Notes under the pieces: model-generated
Told to the model about the DNA's origin: nothing
The model's input: the letters and a program-made list of their open reading frames with translations, nothing else
The model's database searches: none
Made by a program: the position numbers and the translations under genes
Shown: piece after piece, positions 3,471 through 46,855 of the stretch
Position numbering within the stretch: position 1 is the stretch's first letter
Layout of the letters: every line of letters begins with the position of its first letter
Virus record (IMG/VR): IMGVR_UViG_3300017767_000004
Span: 2,589-66,588 of that record
Source of the DNA: a virus
Strand: one strand, 5' to 3'
Length of the DNA: 64,000 nt

Positions 3471-3531
3471 TGTGTTAGAAATAAGTTTCCAAGGGTCGCT
3501 TTTCAAATATATGTTCTCTTTACCAATCTGC
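3471..3531 (+). promoter_or_regulatory. Bipartite promoter, copy 1
   Basis: TGTG at 3471, TTTTCAAA at 3500, ATG at 3532, no SD. Confidence 0.6.
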
Positions 3532-5106
3532 ATGAGAAGTAGGGTTGCTCTTGTAATTCTAATCGCACTAAGTCTGATTTCAGGCGTAGCCGTTGCAAAA
3601 GACAGTGACGGCGACGGCATTTCCAATGAAGAAGAGGATGCTAATGGTAATGGTGTAGTCGATGAAGGAGAAACTGATCCAAACAATGCTGATACGGATG
3701 GCGACGGATTTAATGACGGCGAAGACCCAAATCCAACTGAACCCGATAAAGGCGGTGGGCCACCACCTGATGAAGACCCCAAGGTTGGTGAAGGTGAAGA
3801 TTCAGACGGAGATGGTGTCGATGATGAATTTGATTCAGACCCCTTCGACCCTGATGCAGACGGAGATGGGCTTGAAGATGGCGAAGAAGATACAAACGGC
3901 AATGGAGAAGTCGATGAAGGCGAAACCGACCCAACCGATTCAGATACCGATGGTGATGGTGTCGGTGATGCAGAAGACCCTGACCCAACTGACCCATCTG
4001 TGCCAGGGGGCAGTGTCGATAGCGATGGTGATGGCGTCCTTGATGATTCAGACGAATTTCCCGACGATGATACTGAATGGCAAGATTCGGATGGCGATGG
4101 CGTAGGCGACAATTCCGACGCTTTCCCTGTCGATCCAAAAGAAACAACAGATTCCGATGGAGATGGTGTTGGAGATAACAATGATGACTTACCACTTGAT
4201 CCATCAGAAACAACAGATTCCGATGGAGATGGAGTTGGTGATAATGCCGATGCTTTCCCAAATGATGCTTCAGAAACAACCGACTCGGATGGCGATGGCG
4301 TAGGCGACAATTCCGATGCTTTCCCAGATGATGCTTCTGAAACAACAGATACGGATGGCGATGGCGTAGGAGATAATACCGATTTGTTCCCAAGCGACTC
4401 TTCAGAATCGAATGATGAAGATTTAGATGGAACAGGGGATAACTCTGACGCATTTCCAGGCGACTCTTCAGAATCGAATGACACTGATGGCGATGGCGTA
4501 GGCGACAATTCGGATATTGACATTGATGGCGATGGCATCAATAATACAGAAGACTCCACGCCTTATGATGAAGACGATACTGATGGCGACGGGGTTGGTA
4601 ATTCACAAGACCAAGATGACGATGGCGACGGAGTATCGGACGCAAACGATACTTTCCCATTAGATCCAAATGAAAGTTTAGATTCTGATGGAGATGGAGT
4701 CGGAGACAACGGCGATGCGTTTCCTAATGACCCTTTGAAATCTCAATCTCAATCAAGCTCTGTCAATGATGGATGCCCAAGCCCAACATCAGTCAACGGC
4801 TATTATCCTCTTTATCTCACACCTACATGCGCTGCTAATCACCCAGGCGGTAATGGTGGTTATCACAACCACACCTTAGCAGGGCAGGATTATTACATGC
4901 CAAACGGCCTTAATATGAATTCAAGTAATGGGCCTATTACACAATGGCATGGTGATTACGGGGTCAACGTAGGCTCTGGAGGCGACATATCTCTTGAAGA
5001 TGAAGACGGATATGATTGGCTTAGTCTGGTGATTGTAGCGATTCTTTTGCCCACTATACTATACGGGGTTCTTGGTTTAGTTTCTTCATCATACACAAGG
5101 AAGTGA
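3532..5106 (+). CDS. Secreted, C-terminally anchored TSP3 (thrombospondin type-3-like) Ca-binding repeat protein
   Basis: Signal peptide MRSRVALVILIALSLISGVAVA; many DxDGDGVGDNxDAFPxD repeats; C-terminal TM WLSLVIVAILLPTILYGVLGLV. Confidence 0.9.
   Translation: MRSRVALVILIALSLISGVAVAKDSDGDGISNEEEDANGNGVVDEGETDPNNADTDGDGFNDGEDPNPTEPDKGGGPPPDEDPKVGEGEDSDGDGVDDEFDSDPFDPDADGDGLEDGEEDTNGNGEVDEGETDPTDSDTDGDGVGDAEDPDPTDPSVPGGSVDSDGDGVLDDSDEFPDDDTEWQDSDGDGVGDNSDAFPVDPKETTDSDGDGVGDNNDDLPLDPSETTDSDGDGVGDNADAFPNDASETTDSDGDGVGDNSDAFPDDASETTDTDGDGVGDNTDLFPSDSSESNDEDLDGTGDNSDAFPGDSSESNDTDGDGVGDNSDIDIDGDGINNTEDSTPYDEDDTDGDGVGNSQDQDDDGDGVSDANDTFPLDPNESLDSDGDGVGDNGDAFPNDPLKSQSQSSSVNDGCPSPTSVNGYYPLYLTPTCAANHPGGNGGYHNHTLAGQDYYMPNGLNMNSSNGPITQWHGDYGVNVGSGGDISLEDEDGYDWLSLVIVAILLPTILYGVLGLVSSSYTRK
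3601..4735 (+). repeat. Coding TSP3-type repeat tract; ~66-bp (22-aa) period over ~4080-4520
   Basis: Recurring GATGGCGATGGCGTAGGCGACAATTC-like units encoding DGDGVGDN. Confidence 0.85.
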
Positions 5107-5113
5107 AAAATAA

Positions 5114-5722
5114 ATGTCGTACCAAGAAAGAGTTAGAGATTCCCCATTCGATTATTTTTCAGAATCAACAGAAGCAATTGCGGCTATTTTTCTCACCGTA
5201 TTTTTCTTATCAACTATATTCGTTTTGAGAAATTACTTCAAGACTTGGTTTACGACATTGTTCTGGTCAACCGTAGTGATCGTGCCGTTCCTTTCAAACT
5301 TCTATCATTTGTTTTATGGCGAAGGCTCAATGAAGGATTATGGTGGCGATGGCGACTTGCTTGATGTGTTTTCATCATCGACATGGGAAAATTTTGGATT
5401 TATTAGAGAGGATGGTGGCCTTGGAATTGGAGGCCCATTGTGGAACACATACGAAGTCACTATGCCTTTGCTGGTATTTTCTATTTACATTGTTGGTGCC
5501 TTTTACATGATAATGAGAAACGGATTGGATAATTTCAGAACTCAAACAGTCCGTTCACCTTTCTATTTGTCATTGGTATTCGGAGCAGTTTGGGGGATTG
5601 TGGTTTACGGATTCATTGCAGATGCTTCAGACAACGTTGAAATGTACTACTGGGATTTGGCATCCACCATCGCTTCAATGGTAATTTTTATACTGTTTTG
5701 GAATGAAAAAGATACCCTTTGA
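5114..5722 (+). CDS. Polytopic membrane protein (~5 TM), unknown function
   Basis: Several long hydrophobic segments; starts 7 nt after the upstream stop. Confidence 0.75.
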   Translation: MSYQERVRDSPFDYFSESTEAIAAIFLTVFFLSTIFVLRNYFKTWFTTLFWSTVVIVPFLSNFYHLFYGEGSMKDYGGDGDLLDVFSSSTWENFGFIREDGGLGIGGPLWNTYEVTMPLLVFSIYIVGAFYMIMRNGLDNFRTQTVRSPFYLSLVFGAVWGIVVYGFIADASDNVEMYYWDLASTIASMVIFILFWNEKDTL

Positions 5723-5723
5723 T

Positions 5724-5864
5724 TCAATTTATGACTTCAATCCAGAACCAAAGGAAAAAAAAACCCATGAAAACGAGAAACAGCAATACTGGCAAAGCCC
5801 TTACAAAATCATCTATTTTTTTGAAAACGAACTCATCCCATTGTTGTAAATCATCGTCTTTCAT
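5724..5864 (-). CDS. Small single-TM protein (46 aa), not in the ORF track
   Basis: Manual translation MKDDDLQQWDEFVFKKIDDFVRALPVLLFLVFMGFFFLWFWIEVIN*; fills the gap and continues the minus-strand operon. Confidence 0.6.
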   Translation of the reverse strand: MKDDDLQQWDEFVFKKIDDFVRALPVLLFLVFMGFFFLWFWIEVIN

Positions 5865-5873
5865 TATATCAAC

Positions 5874-6254
5874 TCACGGCAATGTGTAAGATACAGGATT
5901 CCCCTTAATCTTCACCAGAAGGTTGTCATCAACAAACCTATTACACGAACGTTGCAGGGTTCTATGGTCACTGAAACCGCATTTAGTGTAATCTGTCAAG
6001 GGCGTAATGGTGCCATATTTCCTGCAATGCTCCATGACATTATGCAAGGTGATGATGTGCTCTCTTCTAAGAGAAATATCTCGAGGAAAGAGAATCATGC
6101 TAAATCGGGCTTGTTCCCTATCGGTCATTTCGACTATTTGTTGATTAAGAACCGAGATTAAACTTTCTTGATCGTTTACTCTTTTTTTCAAATTAGCAGC
6201 CTCGGTTCTCCAACCTGCAAGTTGGAATCTTTCAGTTTGGCTTGTCTTAGTCAA
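5874..6254 (-). CDS. Coiled-coil plus C-terminal winged-helix-like protein
   Basis: Heptad segment LKKRVNDQESLISVLNQQIVEM; C-terminal HRTLQRSCNRFVDDNLLVKIKGNPVSYTL; TTG start overlapping the upstream TGA, after GGAGG. Confidence 0.6.
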   Translation of the reverse strand: MTKTSQTERFQLAGWRTEAANLKKRVNDQESLISVLNQQIVEMTDREQARFSMILFPRDISLRREHIITLHNVMEHCRKYGTITPLTDYTKCGFSDHRTLQRSCNRFVDDNLLVKIKGNPVSYTLP

Positions 6255-6508
6255 GCAGCAATCCTCCAAATCGGGCTAACCTTTGACCGGCCAGTGAAAG
6301 TTTTGAAGGGGACTGAACCTACTTGTTCGAATGATTTGTCTCTAAGTAAAGAGCGTAATTGATACATTGTAATCCCGTCTGCCCAAGTTTTATTGTATTT
6401 GTCAAGGAGAGCTTGTTGGTCTAATCTGCCGTGTAGGTCTAAAATCGACAACAACCGTTCTTTAGGCTTTCTTGTACCGTAATGTTTCTGCATTCTCTCT
6501 GGAATCAT
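6251..6508 (-). CDS. Small winged-helix protein (archaeal DUF3860-like pattern)
   Basis: ITMYQLRSLLRDKSFEQVG...IWRI; SD GGAGGTGG upstream. Confidence 0.55.
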   Translation of the reverse strand: MIPERMQKHYGTRKPKERLLSILDLHGRLDQQALLDKYNKTWADGITMYQLRSLLRDKSFEQVGSVPFKTFTGRSKVSPIWRIAA

Positions 6509-6682
6509 TCAAGGCCACCTCCCCTTTTTCTTAGGTTTTTTACTTTCTATGATTTGAAATGATTTCAACCGAACACACTCTCGAACGAATTCTGCCCTGG
6601 AGGAATAACCTCCAGCCTTCGCCATTGCTTCATCAACAATTGTTACCAATTCGTCAGGCAAGTGGACGGCGTTAGCAGGCAT
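6509..6682 (-). CDS. Ribbon-helix-helix (CopG/Arc/MetJ) transcription regulator, 57 aa, not in the ORF track
   Basis: Manual translation MPANAVHLPDELVTIVDEAMAKAGGYSSRAEFVRECVRLKSFQIIESKKPKKKGRWP*; V.LP.EL...VD.....Y.SR.EFVR is the RHH signature. Confidence 0.85.
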   Translation of the reverse strand: MPANAVHLPDELVTIVDEAMAKAGGYSSRAEFVRECVRLKSFQIIESKKPKKKGRWP

Positions 6683-6793
6683 TATGATACGCTCTTATTT
6701 CCCTGTGTTTATCAAATAAACGGTTGCAAAGAATACCAAAGACCCAAGAAATTCATTCTTTAACGGCCATTAGCACCAAAAAAACCCTCAAAG

Positions 6794-6855
6794 TGTGCGA
6801 ATCCGTCAAATCGCACCCTATTTATTCATATAGAATCGGAGAATCCACATAGGCC
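6794..6855 (+). promoter_or_regulatory. Bipartite promoter, copy 2, with a GTGCGA-N10-TCGCAC inverted repeat
   Basis: AAGTGTG (TGTG at 6794), TATTCATA at 6823, GCC-ATG at 6856; IR at 6795-6800 and 6811-6816. Confidence 0.6.
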
Positions 6856-9777
6856 ATGAAGAATGCCTTCTCTGCCTTAATGATGACCTTTGTTATGCTA
6901 CTTTCTCTGTCAGCAGTAGCCGTTTCTGCGGCTATTCCAGATGGCGATGGAACTAACGGAATTGACCGAAACCCGACCTCGCCAGAACAGGACGTAAGCG
7001 TTGTAACACGCACAATCGACATGGCTTCAGCGACGTCAAGTATGGAGGTGACCTTCGATAGCGGAATGATTCGAAACTCGAATCCCGCAGCTTCAACTGC
7101 AAACCTTGCAGATTTGTACAGCCCACACAAAATGAAGTGGGACGTTACTACTGCAATTCCTAACACTGGCCCTGGTGCCTTTGCCCAATACGCATTGCCT
7201 TCCGATCCAAGCGAACTTTCTCATGGGGCAGACCATGGGCTAATGGTTGACATTTCGGATACTGCTGAAGTCACGCTAATCGATATTGAGTCCTCTTCTC
7301 AAGTCAAAACTACTTTCCAAAATTGGTATGGCAGTCTTGACCGAACTACTCCACATGGCGTAGGAGATTCAATTTCAACTGCAATCCTCGGAGAATGTAA
7401 CGACGTGGGCTCACGCCTTATCTGCAACATGAATGCGGATTTTGACGGTGATGCTTCAAACGGTAATGATGGTATCGATGATGGATTGACAACTAACATG
7501 ATGGTTGCACCATCCAGCGGTGGCGGAGATGCTGCGTATGGATATGGCCTTTTGGCAGAAGGTTCAACCGCAGACAAGTATTTCGGAATTGATTTCCAAG
7601 TGGCACACAATGCTACACTTATCGTTGATGGAGTTGCCCTGGCAGAAGGCAACACACAAAACGTCCAAGAAAATGCAGAAGTCATCATTCGATGCACAGA
7701 TTTGAAGTGTACCGAAGACGACATTGTTCTATCTGTTCCGACTGCATACGATGCATCAAATTGGGATAATGTAAATTTGATTCTACCAGACGATGCAGAA
7801 ATTTACAATTCAACAAGCCGTATTTCAGTTTACGATCAAACCACATTCAAGTTGACCTTTGGTGTTGACGCTTCGCACACATCAAACGCAACCGCGTCAG
7901 GGGTTCTTTGGGACCCATCAGTAATCATTGAAACAAATGAGCCTGGTATGCGTATGGGGAAAATCCATGATGGAGAAATGTCATGGTGCGATGCAAGTTG
8001 GTTCTTGGCAAAGTGCAACGGCGCTGAGAGCTTCGACGGGAACACAACCGATGGTGCTGACGGAATGATTATGAGAATCACCCTCCCACTCGAAACCTTC
8101 TGGAGCATGGCTGCTTGGGGCGGATATGACAACACAATGTTGCAAATCACCCACCCTAACACAGACTCCTGTTTCAACGGTCAAGTCAACACTCACATTT
8201 ACACAGAGGCAGGTTATGATGCTCTTGTTTCTAAGAATTCAATGATAAATTACTTGCTTTCGGGCAACTACTACTCAGTAGGAGACTTTGGAGTTGCAGA
8301 CTCTTCAGCATCCTTCGGCACAAGTGCCGTTGACTATTGTACTGGCTCAACATCAGGAATCGTAGCCACTGACATTAAGTTGGACGCACTCGCATCTATC
8401 ACACAAAACCCATTGCTTGTTTCTTACAACAATGGCATGTATGATATTGCAGAACGAGTCTTCGACTTCTATGTGGTCGTTTCCCCCGAGGTCGGTACAA
8501 TGAACGCTGGCTCTCCTTCGTTCAATGTCAACATGGAAGGCGGAGACGCACCAAAGTTGAAATTCACACACAGTACAAACCAAGATCCACTTGCAAATCA
8601 ACCTGGTATTACTCGAACGACAGATACTACAAATCAAACAAACCCTGCTTTCGCAACACCATATGTAATGCATTACTCAGGAATCACTCCTTCAGACAAT
8701 GTTATTCAGGGCCGTGATTTAGTTGGTTTCGAACAAGCAGGTGGCGACTATGGGCCTGAATTCATGGGAATCCAAGATGCATCAACATGGGACGCAAGAA
8801 CCGACGAGGCATCATACGCACCAACAGAAAGCACTCCACGTTCAACCGTTGAATGTGGCGTTGCAGTTGCAGATGCAGACATGGTGGAATCCTCAATCGA
8901 AATTTTCACAAATGTTGACACAAGCAAACATACTGGAGAAAACAATGAATCAGAATGGAAAGCATACGGTGTTAGAAATTCAAACAACTCACTTTGGGGA
9001 ATGGGTCCATTCATCGGAGCAAACACAGGTAATCTAAGTGTTGACAACAAAGAAGTCAACACAGGTTCGAGCGCCGTTTCATACACAGGCGTTTTCGTTA
9101 ATGGAGACAACTACAAGGCAGTTTGCACATTCAAGTTTACTTCTTATGATGTTCAAGCCGAAAACTTCACAACACAAACTCTAACCTACACAACACAGTT
9201 CTCTGCCGCTGAAGACGGAGATTACAACTCTGGCGGTGGCGGAGATGTTGGAGATGATGATGGCCTCTTTGATGACCTCGATGGATACGACTACTTGATT
9301 ATCGGACTTGCACTTGCAATCGCAATTCTTGGCGGTGTCATGCTATTTCGTGGCGACCGAATGAATAATGGATTTGATTGGTTCGATGATCGCTTTGCAA
9401 TGGTTCTCTTTGGCGTGGGTATTATCCATGCCTGGATTGCTCATCACTTCTTCTATGACGTGGCCGACCCACTGAGCGAAGAATGGGCTCTTGTCATTGG
9501 TTCAGCCGGATACATTGTTATCGGGCTTTCGATTTATCTCTATGGAGGTGGAAACACAACACGTTCAATGCGAAACATGCGCTACTTGGTCGGAGGATTG
9601 CTTTTGATTCTCTTGGGAGTTCCAACTGCGCTCGAAGGATTCACAGGTGGAGACTTCGAAGACGTCTCCTGGACATTCCCAGTTTACGATGTTATTGCTT
9701 TTGTCGGTAGTGCCATCGGAACTATTCTATTGGCATCAGGGCTTGGCATTCTATTCCGAAGGGAGGGGATGAACTGA
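6856..9777 (+). CDS. 973-aa secreted surface (glyco)protein with C-terminal multi-TM anchor
   Basis: Signal peptide; acidic S/T/G/N-rich ectodomain with Cys pairs and many N-x-S/T sequons; ~5 C-terminal TM helices. Confidence 0.85.
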   Translation: MKNAFSALMMTFVMLLSLSAVAVSAAIPDGDGTNGIDRNPTSPEQDVSVVTRTIDMASATSSMEVTFDSGMIRNSNPAASTANLADLYSPHKMKWDVTTAIPNTGPGAFAQYALPSDPSELSHGADHGLMVDISDTAEVTLIDIESSSQVKTTFQNWYGSLDRTTPHGVGDSISTAILGECNDVGSRLICNMNADFDGDASNGNDGIDDGLTTNMMVAPSSGGGDAAYGYGLLAEGSTADKYFGIDFQVAHNATLIVDGVALAEGNTQNVQENAEVIIRCTDLKCTEDDIVLSVPTAYDASNWDNVNLILPDDAEIYNSTSRISVYDQTTFKLTFGVDASHTSNATASGVLWDPSVIIETNEPGMRMGKIHDGEMSWCDASWFLAKCNGAESFDGNTTDGADGMIMRITLPLETFWSMAAWGGYDNTMLQITHPNTDSCFNGQVNTHIYTEAGYDALVSKNSMINYLLSGNYYSVGDFGVADSSASFGTSAVDYCTGSTSGIVATDIKLDALASITQNPLLVSYNNGMYDIAERVFDFYVVVSPEVGTMNAGSPSFNVNMEGGDAPKLKFTHSTNQDPLANQPGITRTTDTTNQTNPAFATPYVMHYSGITPSDNVIQGRDLVGFEQAGGDYGPEFMGIQDASTWDARTDEASYAPTESTPRSTVECGVAVADADMVESSIEIFTNVDTSKHTGENNESEWKAYGVRNSNNSLWGMGPFIGANTGNLSVDNKEVNTGSSAVSYTGVFVNGDNYKAVCTFKFTSYDVQAENFTTQTLTYTTQFSAAEDGDYNSGGGGDVGDDDGLFDDLDGYDYLIIGLALAIAILGGVMLFRGDRMNNGFDWFDDRFAMVLFGVGIIHAWIAHHFFYDVADPLSEEWALVIGSAGYIVIGLSIYLYGGGNTTRSMRNMRYLVGGLLLILLGVPTALEGFTGGDFEDVSWTFPVYDVIAFVGSAIGTILLASGLGILFRREGMN

Positions 9778-10370: not shown

Positions 10371-10380
10371 AGCCATAAAA

Positions 10381-10440
10381 TGTGATGATAGACCAATTAC
10401 ATGCGCTGGATTCATAACCTTAGAAGCATTGAATTGTGCT
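10381..10440 (+). promoter_or_regulatory. Bipartite promoter, copy 3
   Basis: TGTG at 10381, GATTCATA at 10409, ATG at 10441. Confidence 0.6.
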
Positions 10441-15753: not shown

Positions 15754-15757
15754 ACAA

Positions 15758-16602: not shown

Positions 16603-16609
16603 TTAGTTT

Positions 16610-17536: not shown

Positions 17537-17545
17537 GGAATAAAA

Positions 17546-22240: not shown

Positions 22241-22245
22241 ATAAG

Positions 22246-30064: not shown

Positions 30065-30073
30065 GGTTTTGAC

Positions 30074-31795: not shown

Positions 31796-31797
31796 AG

Positions 31798-32942: not shown

Positions 32943-32951
32943 GGTGCAAAC

Positions 32952-36115: not shown

Positions 36116-36143
36116 TTCGGTTGAAACCAGACTCCGCAAAAAG

Positions 36144-36202
36144 TGTGCTGTTTTCATTAAACTATACGGTGAATTGATAATTAGAAAGGGATAAACTGGT
36201 TT
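36144..36202 (+). promoter_or_regulatory. Bipartite promoter, copy 6
   Basis: AAGTGTG (TGTG at 36144), AATTGATA at 36172, ATG at 36203. Confidence 0.65.
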
Positions 36203-36682: not shown

Positions 36683-36684
36683 TT

Positions 36685-37302: not shown

Positions 37303-37307
37303 ATAAT

Positions 37308-38054: not shown

Positions 38055-38058
38055 AAGT

Positions 38059-40164: not shown

Positions 40165-40165
40165 A

Positions 40166-41413
40166 TTGGATGGTTATAATTTTGGCACCAGGGGCGAACT
40201 AAGGCGCAGGTTGATGCAGAATAACGAAAAATTGTCACTTGAAATGTTGACCCTCCCCCTTGATACTTACCGCACATTAGAGCGAGAACATCAATTCGCA
40301 GTTGAATTTGTTCAGTCGAATCCTGCCTCCGCAGATCTAAAAGTGCTTGATGATTCAGATGAATCAGGGGCATATCACGTTTATGCTGCAACCGTTGATG
40401 GCACATTCATTGACGCTTGGGGTGTATATGATGATGAGCAAAAACTGCTTCAGCAATACAGGCTAAGGAGGTTTAGAGGGAACTTGCCAGTTCCTTCGAG
40501 GTTGGTTGATTCAAGGTTCATCGTGGCTAAAAATTTGAGGACTGGCAAGTTGAAGCCATTTATCACAGATGATTGGGATTCAAATGACATTGAAATCGAT
40601 GATGATTTCCCCGAAGAAAGCGAATTGGAAGATGATTACGATGCTGATGGCGAATATGTTGATTTGAGCGTAGGTTATCGAGATATTATCAATACAAGTC
40701 TGTTAGAAGGGATTTTAGACAAAGACAATCAAGCTTGGAAAAACGTTGATGAGTCAAATCGGTTATTCAGGGAAAGAGGACAAAGTGAAGCGATGAGGGC
40801 TTTAGATTTGCAAACATCATGGTTTGACTCTGCCGAAAAAGAAATTTGTTTGTCGTGTGGAGAGTTTGTTGGTAGTTGCAAAAGAGACGGGATGCGCTAC
40901 GGATGCAAACCGCGCAAATATCCGAAGAGGTCTGAAGGAGACGAGAGATGGGCGATTGTCAGAAAAAGGAAACCTCAGCGTGTCGAGATAGAGATGGAGC
41001 CTGGGTCTTCTTTGGAAGATGCAAGAGCCCGTAAGGAATCTTATGAAAGATACCAAATTAACTCATTTTTCGAGGGAGATGTAAAGTGGATGCAGAATAG
41101 CAAGGGCGATGTATTTCCCGTTCTCCGGTCAACGGGCCAAAGGATTGCCTCTCCCGAACCGATGGTGATTAAGAAAATAATTTCTGGTGGATCTGTGAAT
41201 TCCGAGGGAGAATGGCAAGATTACAAACTAAGCCGTAGGGCGTACCGGCGAAACCTAAATGGTTCAAAATTCGTTGGCACACAATCCACGTTTACCAAAG
41301 ACAAAGCCCGAGCCATCGCTGGATGGGTTCGAAACAACAACGACCTAAACGCAAGAGTAATTCCTTCTTCGAACGGATATAGAATATATTTAGGTAAAAG
41401 GATGGCGAGATAA
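40166..41413 (+). CDS. Hypothetical protein with C-terminal shared module
   Basis: RRNLNGSKF...KARAIAGWVRNNNDLNARVIPSSNGYRIYLG; start is TTG 40166 or GTG 40157. Confidence 0.8.
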   Translation: MDGYNFGTRGELRRRLMQNNEKLSLEMLTLPLDTYRTLEREHQFAVEFVQSNPASADLKVLDDSDESGAYHVYAATVDGTFIDAWGVYDDEQKLLQQYRLRRFRGNLPVPSRLVDSRFIVAKNLRTGKLKPFITDDWDSNDIEIDDDFPEESELEDDYDADGEYVDLSVGYRDIINTSLLEGILDKDNQAWKNVDESNRLFRERGQSEAMRALDLQTSWFDSAEKEICLSCGEFVGSCKRDGMRYGCKPRKYPKRSEGDERWAIVRKRKPQRVEIEMEPGSSLEDARARKESYERYQINSFFEGDVKWMQNSKGDVFPVLRSTGQRIASPEPMVIKKIISGGSVNSEGEWQDYKLSRRAYRRNLNGSKFVGTQSTFTKDKARAIAGWVRNNNDLNARVIPSSNGYRIYLGKRMAR

Positions 41414-43437
41414 TGGGTTCATGTGGTTGCAAAAATGGAATGAAAGGCGGTTCGCCTTGCAATTGTGCCAATTGTGTCAGAAAAAGAGGTAAAACATATT
41501 ATCGAAACTTTGGTGGAAATCAATTCATTGGCACCAAACCAATCAAAGCGGTCAATGCTCAAATTTTAGCAAACAAAGTTCGCTCGCTGGGCAGGAACGT
41601 CAGAGTCATAAACACTGCTGGAGGTAAGCGTTTGTACATCAGCGCACAGAAAAGACCTTACAATCGATTGACAAAGCCCCCTGAGTTAAGTTTAGTTGAA
41701 CTAAAGAATAGGCATGAATTGAGGCCTAAAAATAATGAGTGGTTTTCCGCACAGCGTAACAAAATGCTATCAGTCAATGAGCCTGTATATTCGCTCGTAG
41801 TAGATGGAGATGTTCCATATGGAGAAGTTCCAAAATTAAACGATCCTGAAGGACCGTATATGAATTGGTTGTATCCAGTTAGTGTGTCGAATAGTGTCAA
41901 TCCTCTTTACCTTGCGTATGAATGGTTAGAATACGTTAAGAATCCTCAAGCTCCAGAGAACAGAAAAATACGCCAGCATCTAATGTCTGAAGGCTATACT
42001 GATGCCGACATACAAACAATTACTGATGAAGTAGGCAGAGCCGTCCCCACGCTGGCTAATGAATGGTTGCAGTGGTATCAAAATGGCCGTCAGCAGAGAA
42101 GCAACATTGGCAGCCACCGAGACCCCGATGTTATGCCTCGCAAGTCCGTCAAATGGGAAATAACTGAAGACGGGGTGCAGGATTACCAAGAGCCAGAAAT
42201 ACCCGAAATACCTGAAGAACCTCGTATGTCATTACCTGCAATGTCCTTATTGATCCGTTTGGCTGATGCACTGCCTGCTGAAGTTATCAATAATGCAACA
42301 AGGAATTGGCAAGAGGATGGAGGCCAGGCTTTGACGACCACATATTTTGATTCGGACTCATTTGGTGAAGTAAAAGTTCCTGCAATTGGCGCTGGGGTTT
42401 TCAATAGAAGATTGTCAAATATGTATGTGAACCAATTACCAATCAAAAATCAAAGAATGCTCGAAAAAAGAGTTCGAAGAAGGTTACAACAAATTCACGG
42501 CAAAAACAACCCCGATTTGGAATCATGGGTAAATGATGCCATGAGTTCAAGATTGTCTGACTTAACTGACTTAATTGGCATGTCAACAGTTCAAGAGATT
42601 GCTGATAAAGATAATTCGACTCGCAGATATGACATGACTTGGAATGAGTGGAGAAGTAAATTTACGGGCAAGATGCCTGGTGAGTTTAGATTGTTACGTT
42701 TGCCTTACTCTGAAGTCAACGTCTCTATGGGGGTTGCAGGAGAATACATGATTGGGCAGAAGGTTGGCAATGGGGTACAATTATACAGAATCAATGAGGA
42801 TTCAAGCTCTTCTATGCTCGATAGCAAATTTTCATTTCCTATATCGCCAAATGAAGCAGGATGGGATATGAGCAAAGTGAATATCAAGTCAGGGGCATCA
42901 GTAAAAGAGGCGATTCTAATGGATCAAGCCACAACTATTGGGCGTGTTAGGAGGTCAAAAGACTCTGATGCCGAATATAAGGCTTCTAAGGCACTTGCAG
43001 ATGAAGTGTGGGAACAAGAATATGAATATTACCAAGACTTCATAGAGTCAAATTCGAATAATACATTGCCTGATGATGTTTCATGGGTTATTTACGCAGA
43101 GAAATTGGCACAACAGCGATACAAGGATAAGCGCCAATGGAACAAGATTGCTAAAATTGATGCATTGAAACTCCAGAATAAAGAGCAACTTTCGTTATTC
43201 GATGAATGGAGAAAAAGAAAGGGCATTCCCGACAGAGTAGTTCCTTACATTCACGAAAAGAATTTCATGGGTATGGGTGACCGCCTTCGTTTGTTAGGAG
43301 GCCAAGATACCAAATTTACTAACTTGAGGAAATACGACTTGATGCTTGGTTTTTCGGGATTCAATCCCGACAACTATGATAAAAATGATAATGGCGTGCA
43401 CGATAAATTAGAATCGGAGGATGAGAATAATGAATAG
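41413..43437 (+). CDS. Hypothetical protein with Cys-rich N-terminus and N-terminal shared module
   Basis: MGSCGC...CNCANC; RNFGGNQF...AQILANKVRSLGRNVRVINTAGGKRLYIS. Confidence 0.8.
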   Translation: MGSCGCKNGMKGGSPCNCANCVRKRGKTYYRNFGGNQFIGTKPIKAVNAQILANKVRSLGRNVRVINTAGGKRLYISAQKRPYNRLTKPPELSLVELKNRHELRPKNNEWFSAQRNKMLSVNEPVYSLVVDGDVPYGEVPKLNDPEGPYMNWLYPVSVSNSVNPLYLAYEWLEYVKNPQAPENRKIRQHLMSEGYTDADIQTITDEVGRAVPTLANEWLQWYQNGRQQRSNIGSHRDPDVMPRKSVKWEITEDGVQDYQEPEIPEIPEEPRMSLPAMSLLIRLADALPAEVINNATRNWQEDGGQALTTTYFDSDSFGEVKVPAIGAGVFNRRLSNMYVNQLPIKNQRMLEKRVRRRLQQIHGKNNPDLESWVNDAMSSRLSDLTDLIGMSTVQEIADKDNSTRRYDMTWNEWRSKFTGKMPGEFRLLRLPYSEVNVSMGVAGEYMIGQKVGNGVQLYRINEDSSSSMLDSKFSFPISPNEAGWDMSKVNIKSGASVKEAILMDQATTIGRVRRSKDSDAEYKASKALADEVWEQEYEYYQDFIESNSNNTLPDDVSWVIYAEKLAQQRYKDKRQWNKIAKIDALKLQNKEQLSLFDEWRKRKGIPDRVVPYIHEKNFMGMGDRLRLLGGQDTKFTNLRKYDLMLGFSGFNPDNYDKNDNGVHDKLESEDENNE

Positions 43438-43819
43438 ACTTGGAAATGGCTTAATGACTGCAATAATACTTTTACCTGTTGGAATAATTACATTTGGATT
43501 GATGGTAATTTCTGAAAGTGATTACCAGGATTTGAATGATTTAGGGTCTGGTGCATCGTACATTTTCTTTGGCGTGATTGTAGGGGCGATTTACGCAGTG
43601 ATTGGCGAACAGGGGATGATTGAGAATAACCGCAGTTATCTTGCAAATCCAATTACAGACGTTTTAGCGTTTACAGGTTCGGCGTTCATTGTAGTAAGAG
43701 GTTTTCAAATTGAAGAATATTTCTTTTGCTTGATTGGTAGTGCGATCTATACTATACACTTATTCCAAGTTTTGTTTAAGAATGGATTTAATCCTCCCGA
43801 GGTTGTGAGAAGTCAATGA
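43430..43819 (+). CDS. Membrane protein (4 TM)
   Basis: Hydrophobic helices; SD GGAGG. Confidence 0.7.
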   Translation: MNRLGNGLMTAIILLPVGIITFGLMVISESDYQDLNDLGSGASYIFFGVIVGAIYAVIGEQGMIENNRSYLANPITDVLAFTGSAFIVVRGFQIEEYFFCLIGSAIYTIHLFQVLFKNGFNPPEVVRSQ

Positions 43820-44154
43820 GTTGGAGAGATAGATTGGTTTTTGGTCGGAGAGGGCCAGGATATACAGACCAGATGATTTTTGATTGGTGGTCTTTAGTTC
43901 ATTTTACAAGTGGCTTCATTCTTGCTTTCCTTGGCGCTGAATTCTTAGTCGCATTGGCAATATTGGTATTATTCGAGTTTTGGGAGAACAGTAGGTATGG
44001 TGTTAATTTTTGGAGGACTTTCCCCGATTGGTTGCCTGTTAAAATTGAAATGATTGAAAGTCAAAAACAATACCAGGGCGATTCTTGGGGAAATTTGTTT
44101 TTCGATATTCTTTTTGGTTTGGCAGGTTTTTATGTCGGAGGAATGTTGCTATGA
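43816..44154 (+). CDS. DUF2585-like membrane protein
   Basis: DWWSLVHF..G...FEFWEN...GDSWGNLFFD. Confidence 0.6.
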   Translation: MSWRDRLVFGRRGPGYTDQMIFDWWSLVHFTSGFILAFLGAEFLVALAILVLFEFWENSRYGVNFWRTFPDWLPVKIEMIESQKQYQGDSWGNLFFDILFGLAGFYVGGMLL

Positions 44155-44354
44155 CCATTCATTTCACTATTCAGCAAGACAAAATCATTCATTCATTTAG
44201 AGATTATCCGAAAGGATGGGTTATTGATACTAAAGCAATTGATCGTTGTTCGATTTGCGGAGTTGATGTGAGAAGCCCCGTTATTGTTCGAGATACTTTC
44301 AAGTTTAGAACTCGATTTAGAACGTATGTAATGTGTGTCAAATCAACCGAATAG
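44151..44354 (+). CDS. Small hypothetical protein (67 aa), CxxC plus CxxS
   Basis: ATGA overlap and GGAGG; RCSICG...MCVKS. Confidence 0.55.
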   Translation: MTIHFTIQQDKIIHSFRDYPKGWVIDTKAIDRCSICGVDVRSPVIVRDTFKFRTRFRTYVMCVKSTE

Positions 44355-44392
44355 TCGTATATCTTCAAAAGTGTTTTTTGGATGGTACTGCC
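44334..44392 (+). promoter_or_regulatory. Bipartite promoter, copy 7
   Basis: TGTG at 44334, TCTTCAAA at 44362, GCC-ATG at 44393. Confidence 0.65.
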
Positions 44393-45046
44393 ATGGAAGC
44401 CGAAGCATATGATTCAATCCTCTTTATTTATGGCTGCTTCAGTATTCTTTTTGCGATAGGTTGTTTGATTGAACTATCGACATTAAGAAACCGATGGAGA
44501 GGCGTAGGCGACTCTCGATGGCTTATCCTTGGTACGGCTATTATGGGCGTGTCAGGTTTGGTTGCTATCACCCAATCATCGACTTATTACGATTGGTTAT
44601 TGACAGTTCCCTTGATTTATTTTGCATTATCGCTTAGGATTACAGAGGAAAAGGCCAATCGAGAAATGCTTGGACTCGCTTTTTGGAGTGTCATAACGAT
44701 TATTGGCGCTATTACCATTGAAGGATTTGATTACAGTTTTGAACAAAGGGCGGGGCTGATTACTCCCTTGGCAGTTCTTTTTGGATGGTTTTATTTCCAA
44801 GCAATTAGAAGGGGAGTGTTAGGCTCTTTGACATTTTTTGAGCAGTTTAATTTCATTCTAATTCTGGCATATCCTATACTGTGGTTTAGTGCTGGTATGA
44901 CAATATCGGATACTTCTCATTTTGACGGTTCTATTCTTGATATGATCGGTTGGACTTTCTATGATTATTTGGCAATCTATGTCGTCTTGTCTGTCTTCTG
45001 TAAAATCCTATTGAGTCTGAGTCACGTTCGCCTTACATACCAATAA
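44393..45046 (+). CDS. Divergent type-1 (proteorhodopsin-like) microbial rhodopsin
   Basis: Seven hydrophobic helices; helix C YYDWLLTVPL; helix F AYP; helix G Y-x7-K (YVVLSVFCKIL) aligning with PR YNLADFVNKIL. Confidence 0.75.
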   Translation: MEAEAYDSILFIYGCFSILFAIGCLIELSTLRNRWRGVGDSRWLILGTAIMGVSGLVAITQSSTYYDWLLTVPLIYFALSLRITEEKANREMLGLAFWSVITIIGAITIEGFDYSFEQRAGLITPLAVLFGWFYFQAIRRGVLGSLTFFEQFNFILILAYPILWFSAGMTISDTSHFDGSILDMIGWTFYDYLAIYVVLSVFCKILLSLSHVRLTYQ

Positions 45047-45047
45047 C

Positions 45048-45106
45048 TGTGATTATTGCTCTTATCAAGTGGGTATTTTGAAAAGTGGTGCTATAATGCA
45101 AATTTC
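45048..45106 (+). promoter_or_regulatory. Bipartite promoter, copy 8
   Basis: TGTGATTATTGCT at 45048, TTTTGAAA at 45076, ATG at 45107. Confidence 0.7.
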
Positions 45107-46855
45107 ATGGGTGGCAGTTCTGCAAGCATTAAATCTCAATTATCCGAGTGGTTAAGTGGAAATATTGGCGCTCAAGTCAAACCCCCAAACTCATTATGGA
45201 TGGTTGGTCGGAACGATGCTCCCTCGTCTAAATCTCAATTCAAAACTACGACTGGCTGGGGTGTTGGTTCTGGCGGAGCTACAATCGGACCTGGCCCTTC
45301 GACAGATGGTTTGATCCCTCTATTCTCAAGTAAAAACGAAGCAGAAAGGGAATTGAAGAATATTCAAGATGAAATGTCGGATTTTAGAAAGACAAGTGCG
45401 AGATATGAAGTTAGCAATGTTGAATGGAAAGATTTTGCAGGCGTGACCAAGAATATTTCCAAACTATACAAAGGTGATAAAAAATCTGCTCCATTTGAAA
45501 AAATGAGTCGAAAGCAACTTTTAGATTTTGTACTTGCTAACAATATAACCTACGGGAATAAAGGCCCGATGGCTAATAAGCCAATTTTGCAAAATACTTC
45601 GAAGAATAAAAAATGGCTTTTGGATAGGATACTGAAGTGGGAGAAAAATCAAGATTTGGATAAAATATCTGGATTTGAAACTCGGTGGAATAAATTAACT
45701 TTTGATGATTATTCCTTACCCAATAAACCTGAAAATGTAAAGGAATTGCAGTTAATTGCAACGGACAGGGCTGAATTTCAATCGCGTTTGACTCGACCAG
45801 ATAGAGTAAGGCCCGAGTTCTCTAAATTCAAGGATTTATCTCCGAGAGCAAAAAAACGCGCTCGGAGGTTAAGCGGGAGATTTGAAGACATAACTGAAAA
45901 CTATTCTTCGTCAAAGACGTATGTTGTTGATTCAGAGCTTGAAGGCTGGCGATTCACAAAAAATGGCGGTATCGTATATTCAGAAGGTAATATTGAGGGT
46001 TTAATTGAAGTTAATGGTTTGGACCCTGCTTTAGCAACAGGAGATTGGAAAGGAAAAGAATTTCCTGAGTTTAGTGAAAATTGGCAGGTTGTCCCTGTAA
46101 CCGATGTTTCCATGCTTGAGGCAGATTCAAGAATTGAAGGCTTTCTATTACCTGACGGTAAAGTGCTTGAAATCGAAAATCCAACCAATAAAGGCAATTT
46201 GCTTACGGAGAAATCCTATTTTAGAGAGCCAACAAGATCCGAATTAGACGAGCAGGTATTTTCGAATCCAGCGTATAGGGATAGAACCAAGGCTGGAAAG
46301 AGTGTTGGTCCGACGTTCAAATGGAGTAACCTTTTGTATCGAAATGATGTTTTTGGTAAAGGGGCAAGGCAGTTGCCTGAATTGCTTATTTCTAATCAAC
46401 ATTCATTCATCGAAAAGACCCGTAAGAATCCTACAAAATTTAATTCAACTTCAACATTTCAATTTGCTCGGAATTACAAAATTGATTCTGGCACTGGAAA
46501 GAAAATGAGCGTTCGCTACGTGTCGAGAAAGGCAGGCGAGGGTTTGGTTATTTGGAAAGACAAAAAAATTGCTCGCAAGGCTGCTAAACAAGCGAGGAAA
46601 GGTGGTTATTTGATTCGAACCGTCGAAGTTTCTGGTGGTTTTGTAAATTTAGCCGCCAGGAGACAACATTGGCCGAGTTATCATCCTAAATATAGTGAAG
46701 AAAATAGAGAATACTTGGAGTCCAAGGGCGTTCCAATGTACAAAACCAAAGTGAAAGCAGGTTATGGTGGCGCAAGTCGTACAGTGATGGACGAAACCAT
46801 AAACAAATCAAAATTCCCCAAGAAAATGAACAGTTATTGGAGAAAAAAGAGGTGA
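45107..46855 (+). CDS. Hypothetical protein with SAP/Rho-N-like segment and sub-terminal shared module
   Basis: FEKMSRKQLLDFVLANNI...KKWLLDRIL; IARKAAKQARKGGYLIRTVEVSGGFVNL. Confidence 0.75.
   Translation: MGGSSASIKSQLSEWLSGNIGAQVKPPNSLWMVGRNDAPSSKSQFKTTTGWGVGSGGATIGPGPSTDGLIPLFSSKNEAERELKNIQDEMSDFRKTSARYEVSNVEWKDFAGVTKNISKLYKGDKKSAPFEKMSRKQLLDFVLANNITYGNKGPMANKPILQNTSKNKKWLLDRILKWEKNQDLDKISGFETRWNKLTFDDYSLPNKPENVKELQLIATDRAEFQSRLTRPDRVRPEFSKFKDLSPRAKKRARRLSGRFEDITENYSSSKTYVVDSELEGWRFTKNGGIVYSEGNIEGLIEVNGLDPALATGDWKGKEFPEFSENWQVVPVTDVSMLEADSRIEGFLLPDGKVLEIENPTNKGNLLTEKSYFREPTRSELDEQVFSNPAYRDRTKAGKSVGPTFKWSNLLYRNDVFGKGARQLPELLISNQHSFIEKTRKNPTKFNSTSTFQFARNYKIDSGTGKKMSVRYVSRKAGEGLVIWKDKKIARKAAKQARKGGYLIRTVEVSGGFVNLAARRQHWPSYHPKYSEENREYLESKGVPMYKTKVKAGYGGASRTVMDETINKSKFPKKMNSYWRKKR

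What the first reader, a model, noticed from the sequence alone, without database searches (positions are those of the whole stretch)
3471..45109. Eight-copy bipartite promoter TGTG-N22/23-TT[C/G]A[A/T]A-N23/25-ATG defines a leaderless regulon
Seen: TGTG lies 59, 59, 59, 59, 59, 60, 61 and 62 nt upstream of the ATGs at 24008, 31857, 36203, 44393, 45107, 10441, 3532 and 6856. In each case a TTSAWA hexamer (TTGAAA, TTCAAA, TTGATA, TTCAAA, TTGAAA, TTCATA, TTCAAA, TTCATA) begins 29-31 nt before the ATG. The copies at 31798 and 45048 share TGTGATTATTGCT and TGGRTATTTTSAAA; four copies extend to AAGTGTG. All eight starts are ATG and most lack an SD, whereas internal genes use SD and often TTG/GTG. 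Known: archaeal TATA boxes sit ~26-30 nt before the TSS, leaderless mRNAs need AUG, and archaeal activators bind upstream of BRE/TATA. Inference: a non-canonical weak TATA plus an activator site, probably the late/structural promoter. It controls both rhodopsins and the giant surface proteins. Caveat: the 100-bp gap before 20408 lacks it, and I found the motif by eye.
Basis: partly seen in the sequence, partly recalled or inferred. Interest (0 to 1): 0.85.

Follow-up and report, generated by a model that had tools for sequence, protein, structure and literature searches.

The report
Conserved two-box promoter of marine virus
Eight gene blocks of this 65-70 kb marine virus-like genome are each preceded by the same two-part DNA signal. 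It is placed so that transcription would start on the gene's ATG, as in archaea, and the signal is conserved in all relatives examined, so it is most likely a virus-specific promoter class needing an activator protein.

Summary
TGTG-N26/27-TTSAWA occurs 8 times on the + strand, each 23-25 nt before an ATG that opens a long gene. Shuffles give 1.3 hits, or 0.09 with the ATG. The title's N22/23 spacing is wrong; the true gap is 26/27.

The module is conserved at orthologous gaps in eight related elements, including three complete 63-66 kb genomes with 5-6 copies each. The spacer letters between the boxes are not conserved.

- **Refined motif:** RAAGTGTGCWTAT, a rigid 26-nt gap, GG, TTSAWAa, 22-25 nt, then pyrimidine-ATG.
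- **Promoter-linked starts:** 25/25 are ATG, none has a Shine-Dalgarno, and 24/25 have a pyrimidine at -1.
- **Internal genes:** 35/66 have a Shine-Dalgarno and 22/66 use TTG or GTG.
- **Controls:** the A/T-rich box starts at -31..-28, as in a leaderless thaumarchaeal genome scored with the same script. The bacterial leaderless signature (TANNNT starting at -15..-12, seen in an Acidimicrobiia control) is absent.

Best reading (about 0.65): archaeal-type, activator-dependent leaderless promoters. A conserved RHH plus two wHTH operon next to one of them supplies candidate activators.

Not shown: the transcript start sites (no RNA run was listed), the host, the binding factor, and any 'late' timing.

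The scan has noted the same general architecture before on other marine archaeal viruses, so this is a new variant of a known kind.

The parts
3467..3534 (+). Promoter module 1: box 1 at 3467-3480 (TGTG 3471-3474), hexamer TTCAAA 3502-3507, C-ATG at 3532
   Evidence: Weak by the relatives-only matrix (9.6 bits). A module stands before the homologous gene in G002.
6790..6858 (+). Promoter module 2: box 1 at 6790-6803, hexamer TTCATA 6825-6830, C-ATG at 6856 (973-aa protein)
   Evidence: 12.8 bits. Orthologous modules precede the homologous giant gene in G001, G002 and G003.
10377..10443 (+). Promoter module 3: box 1 at 10377-10390, hexamer TTCATA 10411-10416, T-ATG at 10441 (1770-aa protein)
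   Evidence: 22.8 bits with the relatives-only matrix. Orthologous modules in G001 and G002.
23945..24010 (+). Promoter module 4: box 1 at 23945-23958, GG, hexamer TTGAAA 23979-23984, C-ATG at 24008 (heliorhodopsin with N-terminal extension)
   Evidence: 26.6 bits. Conserved before the heliorhodopsin genes of L001, L003 and L178. Protein conservation begins at this Met.
31794..31859 (+). Promoter module 5: box 1 at 31794-31807, GG, hexamer TTCAAA 31828-31833, C-ATG at 31857
   Evidence: Best score, 30.8 bits. Conserved before the orthologue in L001, L003, L005, L177, L178, L179, L180, L181 and L182.
36140..36205 (+). Promoter module 6: box 1 at 36140-36153, hexamer TTGATA 36174-36179, T-ATG at 36203
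   Evidence: 21.3 bits. Conserved at the same synteny position in L001 and L003.
44330..44395 (+).
   Evidence: 12.1 bits. A module sits at the matching position in L003 at 20932.
45044..45109 (+). Promoter module 8: box 1 at 45044-45057, GG, hexamer TTGAAA 45078-45083, C-ATG at 45107
   Evidence: 23.5 bits.
3532..52389 (+). The eight inferred transcription units: 3532-5722, 6856-10370, 10441-23946, 24008-31795, 31857-36115, 36203-44154, 44393-45046 and 45107-52389. Genes inside the units are tightly packed and SD-led.
   Evidence: ORF chain and upstream regions. The unit ends are inferred, not measured.
5874..6682 (-). Candidate regulators, divergent from module 2: RHH protein (57 aa, 6509-6682), wHTH protein (85 aa, 6251-6508) and wHTH protein (131 aa, 5874-6269)
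   Evidence: Translations. An RHH ORF is also present in G002. Both wHTH genes are conserved at the same place, next to the orthologous module, in G001, G002 and G003. The fold assignments are by eye from the sequences; Pfam gave no hit for the two wHTH ORFs, and the RHH ORF was not scanned.
59774..59802 (-). Promoter without box 1: A/T-only box TTTTTATT at -29..-22 (59795-59802) before C-ATG of the GP88-like gene (ATG at 59773)
   Evidence: An A/T-rich box occupies the same position in G001, G002 and G003.
54174..54203 (-). Promoter without box 1: TTGATA at -30..-25 (54198-54203) before C-ATG at 54173 of the DUF932 gene
   Evidence: TTGATAAG recurs at the same offset in G001.

Best explanation
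The eight sites are copies of one promoter class of an uncultured 65-70 kb marine virus-like element, built on the archaeal plan.

Proposed layout:
- The hexamer TTSAWA(a), together with a conserved GG 6-7 nt upstream of it, serves as a deviant TATA box plus BRE-like element.
- It is centred about 26-27 bp before the A of the ATG, so the host's TBP/TFB/RNA polymerase would start transcription on or within a base or two of the start codon, at a pyrimidine(-1)/A(+1) initiator.
- The resulting mRNA has no leader, and its first cistron needs AUG and no Shine-Dalgarno. Downstream cistrons of each unit are translated through Shine-Dalgarno sites.
- Box 1 (RAAGTGTGCWTAT, 58-62 nt before the ATG) lies exactly 30 bp, about three helical turns, upstream of the hexamer. 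It is a sequence-specific site for a transcription factor that helps TBP/TFB load on the weak TATA box.
- The best candidates for that factor are the conserved RHH and two wHTH proteins encoded divergently beside module 2.

Shown here: the motif, its statistics, its conservation and rigid spacing, the SD/ATG/-1 dichotomy, and the match to archaeal and mismatch to bacterial leaderless geometry.

Inferred: the transcription start point, TBP/TFB use, activation rather than repression, the identity of the factor, the archaeal host, and the timing of expression.
For: 1. The regex is enriched: 8 hits against 1.26 +/- 1.12 in shuffles, all 8 in phase with an ATG against 0.09 expected.
2. Independent matrices from relatives recover 5 of the 8 sites above the null.
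3. The module is present at orthologous roughly 60-nt gaps in L001, L003, L005, L177, L178 and L179 and in three complete genomes. Those genomes carry 5-6 copies above threshold on the gene strand, each followed by an ATG at 59-62 nt. Proteins are only 28-57% identical, and spacer columns carry no information.
4. The box 1 to box 2 gap is 26 nt in 23 of 25 instances (22 by the automatic anchoring, plus L003:20932 re-read by eye) and 27 nt in the other two. Box 2 to ATG is 22-25 nt.
5. Promoter-linked starts are 25/25 ATG against 44/66 for internal genes (p = 3e-4). None of 25 has an SD of 5 nt or more within 10 nt, against 35/66 (p = 4e-7). A pyrimidine stands at -1 in 24/25 against 25/66 (p = 2e-7).
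6. The same script on a thaumarchaeal MAG gives an A/T-hexamer peak starting at -30/-29 from the ATG. The element promoters peak at -31..-28.
7. An Acidimicrobiia control shows the bacterial leaderless signature, TANNNT starting at -15..-12. The element promoters have none, and positions -22..-2 carry no information.
8. Sigma-70-type and hairpin-terminator consensus matches are not clearly enriched: 43 against 47.1 +/- 6.7 and 51 against 39.6 +/- 6.4 for promoters, 21 against 16.0 +/- 4.6 and 19 against 17.4 +/- 4.0 for terminators.
9. Genes without box 1 (GP88-like, DUF932) also have an A/T-rich box at -31..-22, with a pyrimidine before the ATG in seven of the eight cases, across relatives. 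The core geometry is therefore general and box 1 is an add-on.
10. No conserved RNA structure is predicted in the module (0 pairs).
11. The two wHTH genes are conserved next to the orthologous module in G001-G003, and an RHH ORF precedes them in the window and in G002.
12. Published precedent: archaeal activators bind upstream of BRE and go with deviant TATA/BRE (PMC5512572), and the GvpE UAS needs a fixed distance (PMC2241852).
Against: - No transcript 5' end is available, since no RNA run was listed. 'Leaderless' and the start point remain inferences.
- The host is unknown. No relative was found in 401 Thermoplasmatota genomes or in the species-representative genome collection.
- The heliorhodopsin sits on a long branch with both Acidimicrobiia and Thermoplasmatota at about 41-47% identity.
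- Several Pfam families in the element are, from memory, mostly known from bacteria and their phages (GP88, DUF932, DUF3846, DUF6884). The GP88-like protein is 44-48% identical to proteins of phages of Limnohabitans, Xanthomonas and Pelagibacter.
- The hexamer has C or G at its third position in 24/25 copies, unlike any archaeal TATA consensus I know.
- The one MGIIb genome examined uses canonical TATA boxes, leaders and SD.
- Box 1 is separated from the BRE-like GG by about 13 non-conserved nt, whereas studied archaeal UAS elements abut BRE.
- Three of the eight window sites are weak by sequence score alone.
Confidence: 0.65

Rival explanations
1. The core promoter reading is right (TATA-like box, leaderless start), but box 1 is not an activator site. 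It could be an operator for a repressor that keeps the block silent until a signal. It could also be a boundary or termination element that ends transcription from the upstream unit just after its stop codon.
For: In 5 of 8 window sites the upstream gene's stop codon lies 1-2 nt before TGTG, and in many relatives it is similarly close. RHH proteins are commonly repressors (general knowledge). No hairpin terminators separate the units, so some insulation might be needed.
Against: Box 1 keeps its rigid 26-nt distance to the hexamer even where no gene ends nearby: 1071, 179 and 28 nt after the previous stop at 6794, 44334 and 36144. A site 20 bp upstream of BRE lies, by general knowledge of the archaeal pre-initiation complex, outside its footprint, which is a poor position for steric repression. 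Deviant TATA boxes are the published hallmark of activated promoters (PMC5512572).
Confidence: 0.15
2. The host is a bacterium, and the module is recognised by a virus-encoded or virus-modified RNA polymerase or sigma-like factor hidden among the many unannotated large proteins. The archaeal-looking geometry would then be a coincidence.
For: Pfam families with, from memory, mainly bacterial and phage distribution, and a GP88-like protein 44-48% identical to proteins of bacterial phages. Heliorhodopsin relatives include many Acidimicrobiia. Most large proteins have no annotation.
Against: No -10-like element lies at any fixed distance before the starts, while the bacterial leaderless control shows one clearly. 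The GG-to-TT spacing (7 nt) does not fit sigma-54, which has 10. Known phage RNA polymerase promoters, from memory, are conserved right up to the start site, whereas -22..-2 here carries no information. Genes lacking box 1 share the same -30 box geometry, which a host polymerase must read early in infection. No RNA polymerase or sigma family was found in the 58 of about 60 listed window ORFs that were scanned.
Confidence: 0.12
3. The roughly 60-nt module acts at the RNA level. It would be a processing site or a translation signal inside long polycistronic transcripts, for example a cleavage site that creates a 5' end at the AUG or a ribosome-loading element.
For: Units are not separated by recognisable terminators, so long transcripts are likely. 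The element is strand-specific. Ten of 25 copies carry a 4-nt or longer piece of the SD consensus upstream of the ATG.
Against: No conserved secondary structure and no covariation were found in 19 aligned copies. The conserved letters form two short blocks with a rigid DNA-helical spacing and an information-free interval, which is typical of protein-DNA contacts. The A/T-rich block sits at the archaeal TATA position.
Confidence: 0.05

Closest known systems
Archaeal BRE/TATA core promoters giving leaderless first cistrons with SD-led internal cistrons (described for Sulfolobus, haloarchaea and others; measured here on a thaumarchaeal MAG as a control)
   Same: An A/T-rich box is centred about 26-27 bp before the start codon. 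The initiator is pyrimidine(-1)/A(+1). First genes are ATG-only and lack an SD. Internal genes carry GGAGGTGA-type SD sites.
   Different: The box reads TTSAWA, with C or G at position 3 in 24/25 copies, instead of an all-A/T TATA. The start sites are not measured, and the host is unknown.
GvpE-dependent gas-vesicle promoters of Halobacterium and Haloferax (20-nt UAS upstream of BRE; PMC2241852)
   Same: A sequence-specific upstream element is needed in addition to BRE/TATA, and its distance to the core promoter cannot be changed. One factor drives several promoters.
   Different: The GvpE UAS is two 8-nt portions directly adjacent to BRE. Box 1 here is a single block of about 13 nt, separated from the BRE-like GG by about 13 non-conserved nt. 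No GvpE-like protein was identified.
Ptr2 (Methanocaldococcus jannaschii) and EarA (Methanococcus maripaludis) activator sites upstream of BRE (as summarised in PMC5512572)
   Same: Activator sites lie upstream of the core promoter and compensate for a sub-optimal TATA or BRE by recruiting TBP or TFB. This is the mechanism proposed here.
   Different: Those sites are multiple or repeated and lie close to BRE. Here a single asymmetric site sits at a fixed three-turn distance. Binding and recruitment are not tested here.
Virus promoters helped by a dedicated factor: Sta1 on SIRV1 promoters (PMC1635249); promoter modules noted earlier in this scan on marine archaeal viruses (e1-3288950, e1-1912855, e1-3331658)
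   Same: A virus genome carries a family of near-identical promoter modules, a TATA-like box plus a virus-specific element, placed for leaderless transcripts.
   Different: Sta1 is host-encoded. The earlier scan cases have the specific element next to or inside the TATA/start region, not 30 bp upstream. Those are AI notes that I did not re-test.

Membership tests
Archaeal BRE/TATA promoter of a leaderless mRNA | A/T-rich TATA element centred about 26-27 bp upstream of the transcription start | tested here: met
   Measured relative to the ATG only. The hexamer occupies -29..-24 (range -31..-28 for its start) in 25 instances. The thaumarchaeal control peaks at -30/-29 with the same script.
Archaeal BRE/TATA promoter of a leaderless mRNA | TATA box sequence of A and T only (TTTAWA-like) | tested here: not met
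   Position 3 of the hexamer is C (16) or G (8) in 24/25 instances. The flanks are A/T-rich, but the consensus is deviant.
Archaeal BRE/TATA promoter of a leaderless mRNA | BRE immediately upstream of TATA | tested here: inconclusive
   Conserved S and G at 7 and 6 nt and T at 4 nt before the hexamer lie in the BRE region. They do not match a published BRE consensus that I can verify.
Archaeal BRE/TATA promoter of a leaderless mRNA | Initiator: pyrimidine at -1, purine at +1 | tested here: met
   A pyrimidine precedes the ATG in 24/25 promoter-linked starts against 25/66 internal starts, p = 2e-7.
Archaeal BRE/TATA promoter of a leaderless mRNA | First cistron starts with AUG and has no Shine-Dalgarno | tested here: met
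   25/25 ATG against 44/66. 0/25 against 35/66 with an SD of 5 nt or more within 10 nt.
Archaeal BRE/TATA promoter of a leaderless mRNA | Mapped primary 5' end at or next to the start codon | not testable with these tools
   No RNA run holding the sequence was listed.
Archaeal BRE/TATA promoter of a leaderless mRNA | Host is an archaeon; TBP and TFB bind the element | not testable with these tools
   No host genome, tRNA or provirus was found. The heliorhodopsin tree is uninformative.
Activator-dependent archaeal promoter with UAS (GvpE, Ptr2, EarA type) | Conserved sequence-specific element upstream of BRE at a fixed distance | tested here: met
   Box 1 is RAAGTGTGCWTAT. The gap to the hexamer is 26 nt in 23/25 instances (22 by the automatic anchoring, one re-read by eye) and 27 nt in the other two. 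It is conserved across eight related elements.
Activator-dependent archaeal promoter with UAS (GvpE, Ptr2, EarA type) | UAS lies directly adjacent to BRE | tested here: not met
   About 13 information-free positions separate box 1 from the conserved GG.
Activator-dependent archaeal promoter with UAS (GvpE, Ptr2, EarA type) | Core TATA/BRE deviates from consensus | tested here: met
   TTSAWA in place of an all-A/T box. Genes without box 1 include all-A/T boxes such as TTTTTATT.
Activator-dependent archaeal promoter with UAS (GvpE, Ptr2, EarA type) | A cognate DNA-binding activator binds the UAS and raises transcription | not testable with these tools
   Only candidates exist: the RHH plus two wHTH operon beside module 2, whose two wHTH genes are conserved in G001-G003.
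Bacterial sigma-70 promoter, including the actinobacterial leaderless type | -10 hexamer TANNNT a few nt upstream of the start (for leaderless genes, about -12..-7 from the start codon) | tested here: not met
   TANNNT starts at -15..-12 in 2 of 25 modules in total, with no peak. The Acidimicrobiia control peaks there (6, 6, 10 and 14 of 386). Positions -22..-2 carry no information.
Bacterial sigma-54 promoter | GG and GC elements with invariant spacing (TGGCAC-N5-TTGCW) | tested here: not met
   The distance from the conserved GG to the TT of the hexamer is 7 nt, not 10. The consensus is recalled from general knowledge.

The most novel reading that the evidence does not exclude
The module is the address label of a self-contained viral transcription switch. 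A virus-encoded RHH or wHTH factor would bind box 1 exactly three helical turns upstream of a deliberately crippled, C/G-centred TATA box. Only then would the host archaeal machinery load, so the whole 49-kb virion-type block, including a heliorhodopsin, fires as one regulon. This would occur in a previously undescribed family of 63-69 kb terminal-repeat viruses of uncultured marine archaea. If true, it would provide the first defined activator and UAS pair for that host group and a distal-UAS geometry not yet described in archaea.
Probability: 0.3. Interest if true: 0.7.

Novelty: new variant of a known kind. Interest (0 to 1): 0.55.

Why it matters
Almost every protein of this element family lacks annotation, so its expression signals are the clearest functional information in it. 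The module divides the 49-kb block into eight transcription units and fixes eight true start codons. It also argues for an archaeal host for a globally recurring marine virus-like lineage: the window's DNA was held by runs of 11 studies.

The module gives a compact, testable case of activator-dependent transcription in uncultured archaea: a 13-nt site, a 30-bp phasing rule, a deviant TATA box and three conserved candidate regulators. Few archaeal activators are understood, and the studied ones bind next to BRE. A phased site 20 bp further upstream would extend that picture.

Tried and rejected
- **Pattern fishing.** I searched public collections with GTGTGCTTATTG-N15-20-TTSAWA. It gave 51 viral and 120 or more genome hits, none related to the window by tblastn. 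They are chance matches, including a Thalassarchaeaceae contig.
- **Single-protein locus searches** found nothing.
- **Host from heliorhodopsin.** The best cellular hits are Acidimicrobiia and Thermoplasmatota at similar identity. The apparent coverage of the N-terminal extension in Acidimicrobiia is spurious, since the alignments run through non-coding DNA. The viral clade sits on a long branch.
- **Provirus or mis-binned relatives.** None was found in 401 Thermoplasmatota genomes or in the species-representative genomes. This is not evidence of absence.
- **MGII as host by promoter style.** The MGIIb MAG shows canonical TATA hexamers enriched at -65..-36, a G peak at -9/-8 and no leaderless peak. 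It does not resemble the element. The pattern-count comparison used an unsuitable control and was not used.
- **RNA evidence.** No RNA run was listed.
- **Annotation.** PHROGs gave no hit for ten proteins. No tRNA or Rfam family was found.
- **RNA structure.** None was found in the module.
- **Atlas look-ups.** The ATPase, wHTH131 and SNF2 gave mixed taxa and low scores, so they count as leads only.
- **A crude whole-genome screen** for SD-less ATGs with A/T boxes was too noisy to use.
- **No TFB, TBP, sigma or RNA polymerase family** was found in the 58 of about 60 listed window ORFs that were scanned; the 57-aa RHH and two short overlapping ORFs were not scanned.

Full report
**1. What is in the window**

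The window is a compact sequence of about 41% G+C, with nearly all genes on the + strand from 1 to 52.4 kb. No whole genome is held for it. It has no tRNA and no Rfam family.

Its DNA is held by marine 'viral metagenome' and seawater runs of 11 studies. Pfam recognises little:
- a heliorhodopsin at 24008-25141
- an SNF2-type helicase
- DUF6884
- a ligase OB domain
- a GP88-like protein
- DUF932
- DUF3846
- TspO
- a short DUF5754 match in one of the 'tagged' proteins

PHROGs recognises none of ten proteins tried.

**2. The observation**

The only error is the title's N22/23. The gap between TGTG and the hexamer is 26 nt at six sites and 27 nt at two sites.

On the + strand the regex TGTG-N26/27-TTSAWA has 8 hits, every one followed 23-25 nt later by an ATG that opens a long ORF. 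The - strand has 3 hits with no such ATG, and neighbouring gap lengths give 0-1 hits. A thousand dinucleotide-preserving shuffles give 1.26 +/- 1.12 hits, or 0.09 with the ATG, and none reaches 8.

**3. Independent test with relatives**

The protein behind module 5 has eight homologues at 31-55% identity in metagenomes. Their contigs are syntenic with the window and have roughly 60-nt gaps at the same places. A profile of the family also found three IMG/VR genomes of 63-66 kb, rated 100% complete, two of them with direct terminal repeats.

In every one of these elements the gaps carry the same module.

I built weight matrices from the relatives alone and scanned the window. Sites 31798, 23949, 45048, 10381 and 36144 rank as the top five + strand hits at 21-31 bits, against a null 95th percentile of 17.9. 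Sites 6794, 44334 and 3471 score 10-13 bits, which is not significant on sequence alone. These three still have the exact geometry. Modules precede the homologous genes in relatives: the 973-aa and 1770-aa proteins in G001 and G002, the 3532 homologue in G002, and the synteny position of 44393 in L003.

Leave-one-genome-out scans find 6, 5 and 6 modules on the gene strand of G001, G002 and G003, each with an ATG 59-62 nt after TGTG. They find almost nothing on the other strand.

**4. Refined anatomy from 25 instances**

- **Box 1** is R-A-A-G-T-G-T-G-C-W-T-A-T. The A at -3 and the GTG core are invariant.
- **The gap** from TGTG to the hexamer is 26 nt in 23 of 25 instances, one of them (L003:20932) re-read by eye. 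TGTG therefore starts 30 bp before the hexamer, which is close to three helical turns.
- **Upstream of the hexamer** there is a conserved S-G at 7 and 6 nt and a T at 4 nt.
- **The hexamer** is T-T-S-A-W-A followed by A.
- **The next 22-25 nt** carry no information.
- **The position before the ATG** is C (18), T (6) or G (1).

Box 1 often begins 1-2 nt after the previous gene's stop codon. It keeps its distance to the hexamer, not to the stop, where the previous gene ends 28, 179 or 1071 nt away. An alignment of 19 copies predicts no RNA base pair at all.

**5. Two classes of gene start**

| | Internal genes, window plus four relatives (n = 66) | Promoter-linked genes (n = 25) | p |
|---|---|---|---|
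| SD of 5 nt or more within 10 nt | 35 | 0 | 4e-7 |
| Start codon | 44 ATG, 14 TTG, 8 GTG | 25 ATG | 3e-4 |
| Pyrimidine at -1 | 25 | 24 | 2e-7 |

The internal SD words are mostly GGAGG, GAGGT, GAGGTGA and GGTGA. Protein conservation in the heliorhodopsin family and in the family of gene 31857 begins at the Met set by the module.

An AUG-only, SD-free start with a pyrimidine/purine initiator is what a leaderless transcript requires.

**6. Which transcription machinery?**

I ran one script on three kinds of sequence.

- **Thaumarchaeal MAG (archaeal leaderless control):** all-A/T hexamers peak sharply when they start 30-29 nt before the first ATG (67 and 64 of 230 upstream regions).
- **Acidimicrobiia chromosome segment (bacterial leaderless control):** TANNNT peaks at starts -15..-12.
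- **Element promoters:** the A/T-rich peak is at -31..-28 (15-18 of 25), and there is no TANNNT peak.

Sigma-70-type and hairpin-terminator consensus matches are not clearly enriched in the window. The GG-to-TT distance of 7 nt does not fit sigma-54.

From general knowledge, the archaeal or eukaryotic TBP-based system is the only one I know in which the sole core element lies at about -30..-23 and the DNA from -22 to -2 is free. The SD-led internal cistrons exclude a eukaryotic host.

Genes that lack box 1 (GP88-like at 59773, DUF932 at 54173) also carry an A/T-rich box at -31..-22, with a pyrimidine before the ATG in seven of the eight cases, in the window and in G001-G003. The core geometry therefore looks like the general rule of the host, and box 1 looks like an addition that defines a subset.

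**7. What box 1 is likely to do**

Published work states that archaeal activators bind upstream of BRE, recruit TBP or TFB, and are associated with TATA or BRE elements that deviate from consensus (PMC5512572). The GvpE UAS loses function when its distance to BRE is changed (PMC2241852).

Box 1 plus a C/G-centred TATA-like box at a rigid spacing fits that logic. It differs in being a single asymmetric block separated from the BRE region by about 13 free positions.

Candidate binders are encoded divergently next to module 2. They are an RHH protein of 57 aa (6509-6682, below the 60-aa ORF threshold used) and two wHTH proteins (6251-6508 and 5874-6269). Both wHTH genes are conserved at the same place beside the orthologous module in all three complete relatives, and G002 also shows the RHH. 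The fold assignments are by eye. Pfam had no hit for the two wHTH ORFs, and the atlas look-up gave only low-scoring, mostly archaeal wHTH clusters.

**8. What remains open**

- **Start sites.** No RNA run was listed.
- **Host.** Heliorhodopsin relatives are split between Acidimicrobiia and Thermoplasmatota, and the viral clade is on a long branch. No relative was found in 401 Thermoplasmatota genomes. One MGIIb MAG has leadered, SD-using genes with canonical TATA boxes, unlike the element.
- **Caution on domain.** Several recognised families are, from memory, mostly bacterial or phage families. The GP88-like protein is 44-48% identical to proteins of bacterial phages. This is the main reason my confidence is not higher.
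- **Timing.** 'Late' or 'structural' expression is untested. What can be said is that the eight modules tile the 3.5-52.4 kb block and are absent from 1-3.4 kb and 52.4-64 kb.

**9. Comparison and novelty**

The kind of thing is known: archaeal leaderless promoters, activator-dependent ones, and virus-specific promoter families. First-stage notes and follow-ups of this scan describe similar promoter families on other marine archaeal viruses. I did not re-test those.

New here are the motif itself, the distal three-turn phasing, the S-centred TATA-like box, and its family-wide conservation in an undescribed 63-69 kb element lineage that carries heliorhodopsin. I rate it a new variant of a known kind, with interest 0.55.

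Noticed in passing
window 36616-37302 (+); also L001:14777-15430, L003:14047-14700, L005:8428-9081: The 217-228 aa glycine-zipper membrane protein ends in ...(A/S)DFDG(D/N)PTTG(W/L), conserved in the relatives examined. The string resembles the NADFDGD metal-binding motif of multisubunit RNA polymerases. In a small membrane protein this is probably a coincidence or a cation-binding tail.
   Followed up: no
window 6509-6682 (-): A 57-aa ribbon-helix-helix ORF escapes the 60-aa ORF threshold used. It heads an RHH, wHTH, wHTH operon that is divergent from the promoter at 6790-6858. The two wHTH genes are conserved in the three complete relatives, and an RHH ORF was seen in G002.
   Followed up: partly
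window 20350-20360; 5816-5822; 52405-52409: T5-T7 runs without hairpins occur in three places: two T5 runs in the 100-nt gap before 20408 inside unit 3, a T7 run 94 nt after the end of unit 1, and a T5 run 16 nt after the end of unit 8. Oligo-T tracts are the usual archaeal termination signal, so these may be terminators or an internal attenuator.
   Followed up: no
G002 and G003 (IMG/VR records behind L181, L182; 63,413 and 65,449 bases): Two relatives are classed as complete genomes with direct terminal repeats. The family therefore has a unit length of about 63-69 kb. None of the 16 relatives' loci scanned carries a tRNA gene.
   Followed up: partly
window 58667-59773 (-): The GP88-like protein is 44-48% identical over about 63% of its length to proteins of phages of Limnohabitans, Xanthomonas, Stenotrophomonas and Pelagibacter. 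That is unusually close for an element whose expression signals look archaeal. It suggests gene exchange across host domains or argues against an archaeal host.
   Followed up: partly
window 23991-24004: AGGAGGG lies 11-17 nt before the heliorhodopsin ATG and 5 nt before an in-frame GTG at 24002. This gene could therefore also be translated from read-through transcripts through a normal SD. The GTG is not conserved in L001 or L003, although GGAG-like words at -19..-10 recur in 10 of 25 modules.
   Followed up: partly
window 16610-43437 (many genes); for example 22231-23946 residues 478-530: Many proteins share a basic module of about 50 aa (R-x-F-x-G ... A-R-V-I-P ... G-Y-x-V-Y-x-G) at the N- or C-terminus. 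One copy matches Pfam DUF5754 (E = 1e-12). By eye it resembles half of a SPOR-like beta-alpha-beta-beta unit.
   Followed up: no
window 61737-61760 (-): A good box-1 match (GAAGTGTGAAATTC, 11.5 bits) lies only 15 nt before the ATG of the ATPase gene at 61736, without a hexamer at the usual distance. It may be an operator-like use of the same site, or chance.
   Followed up: no
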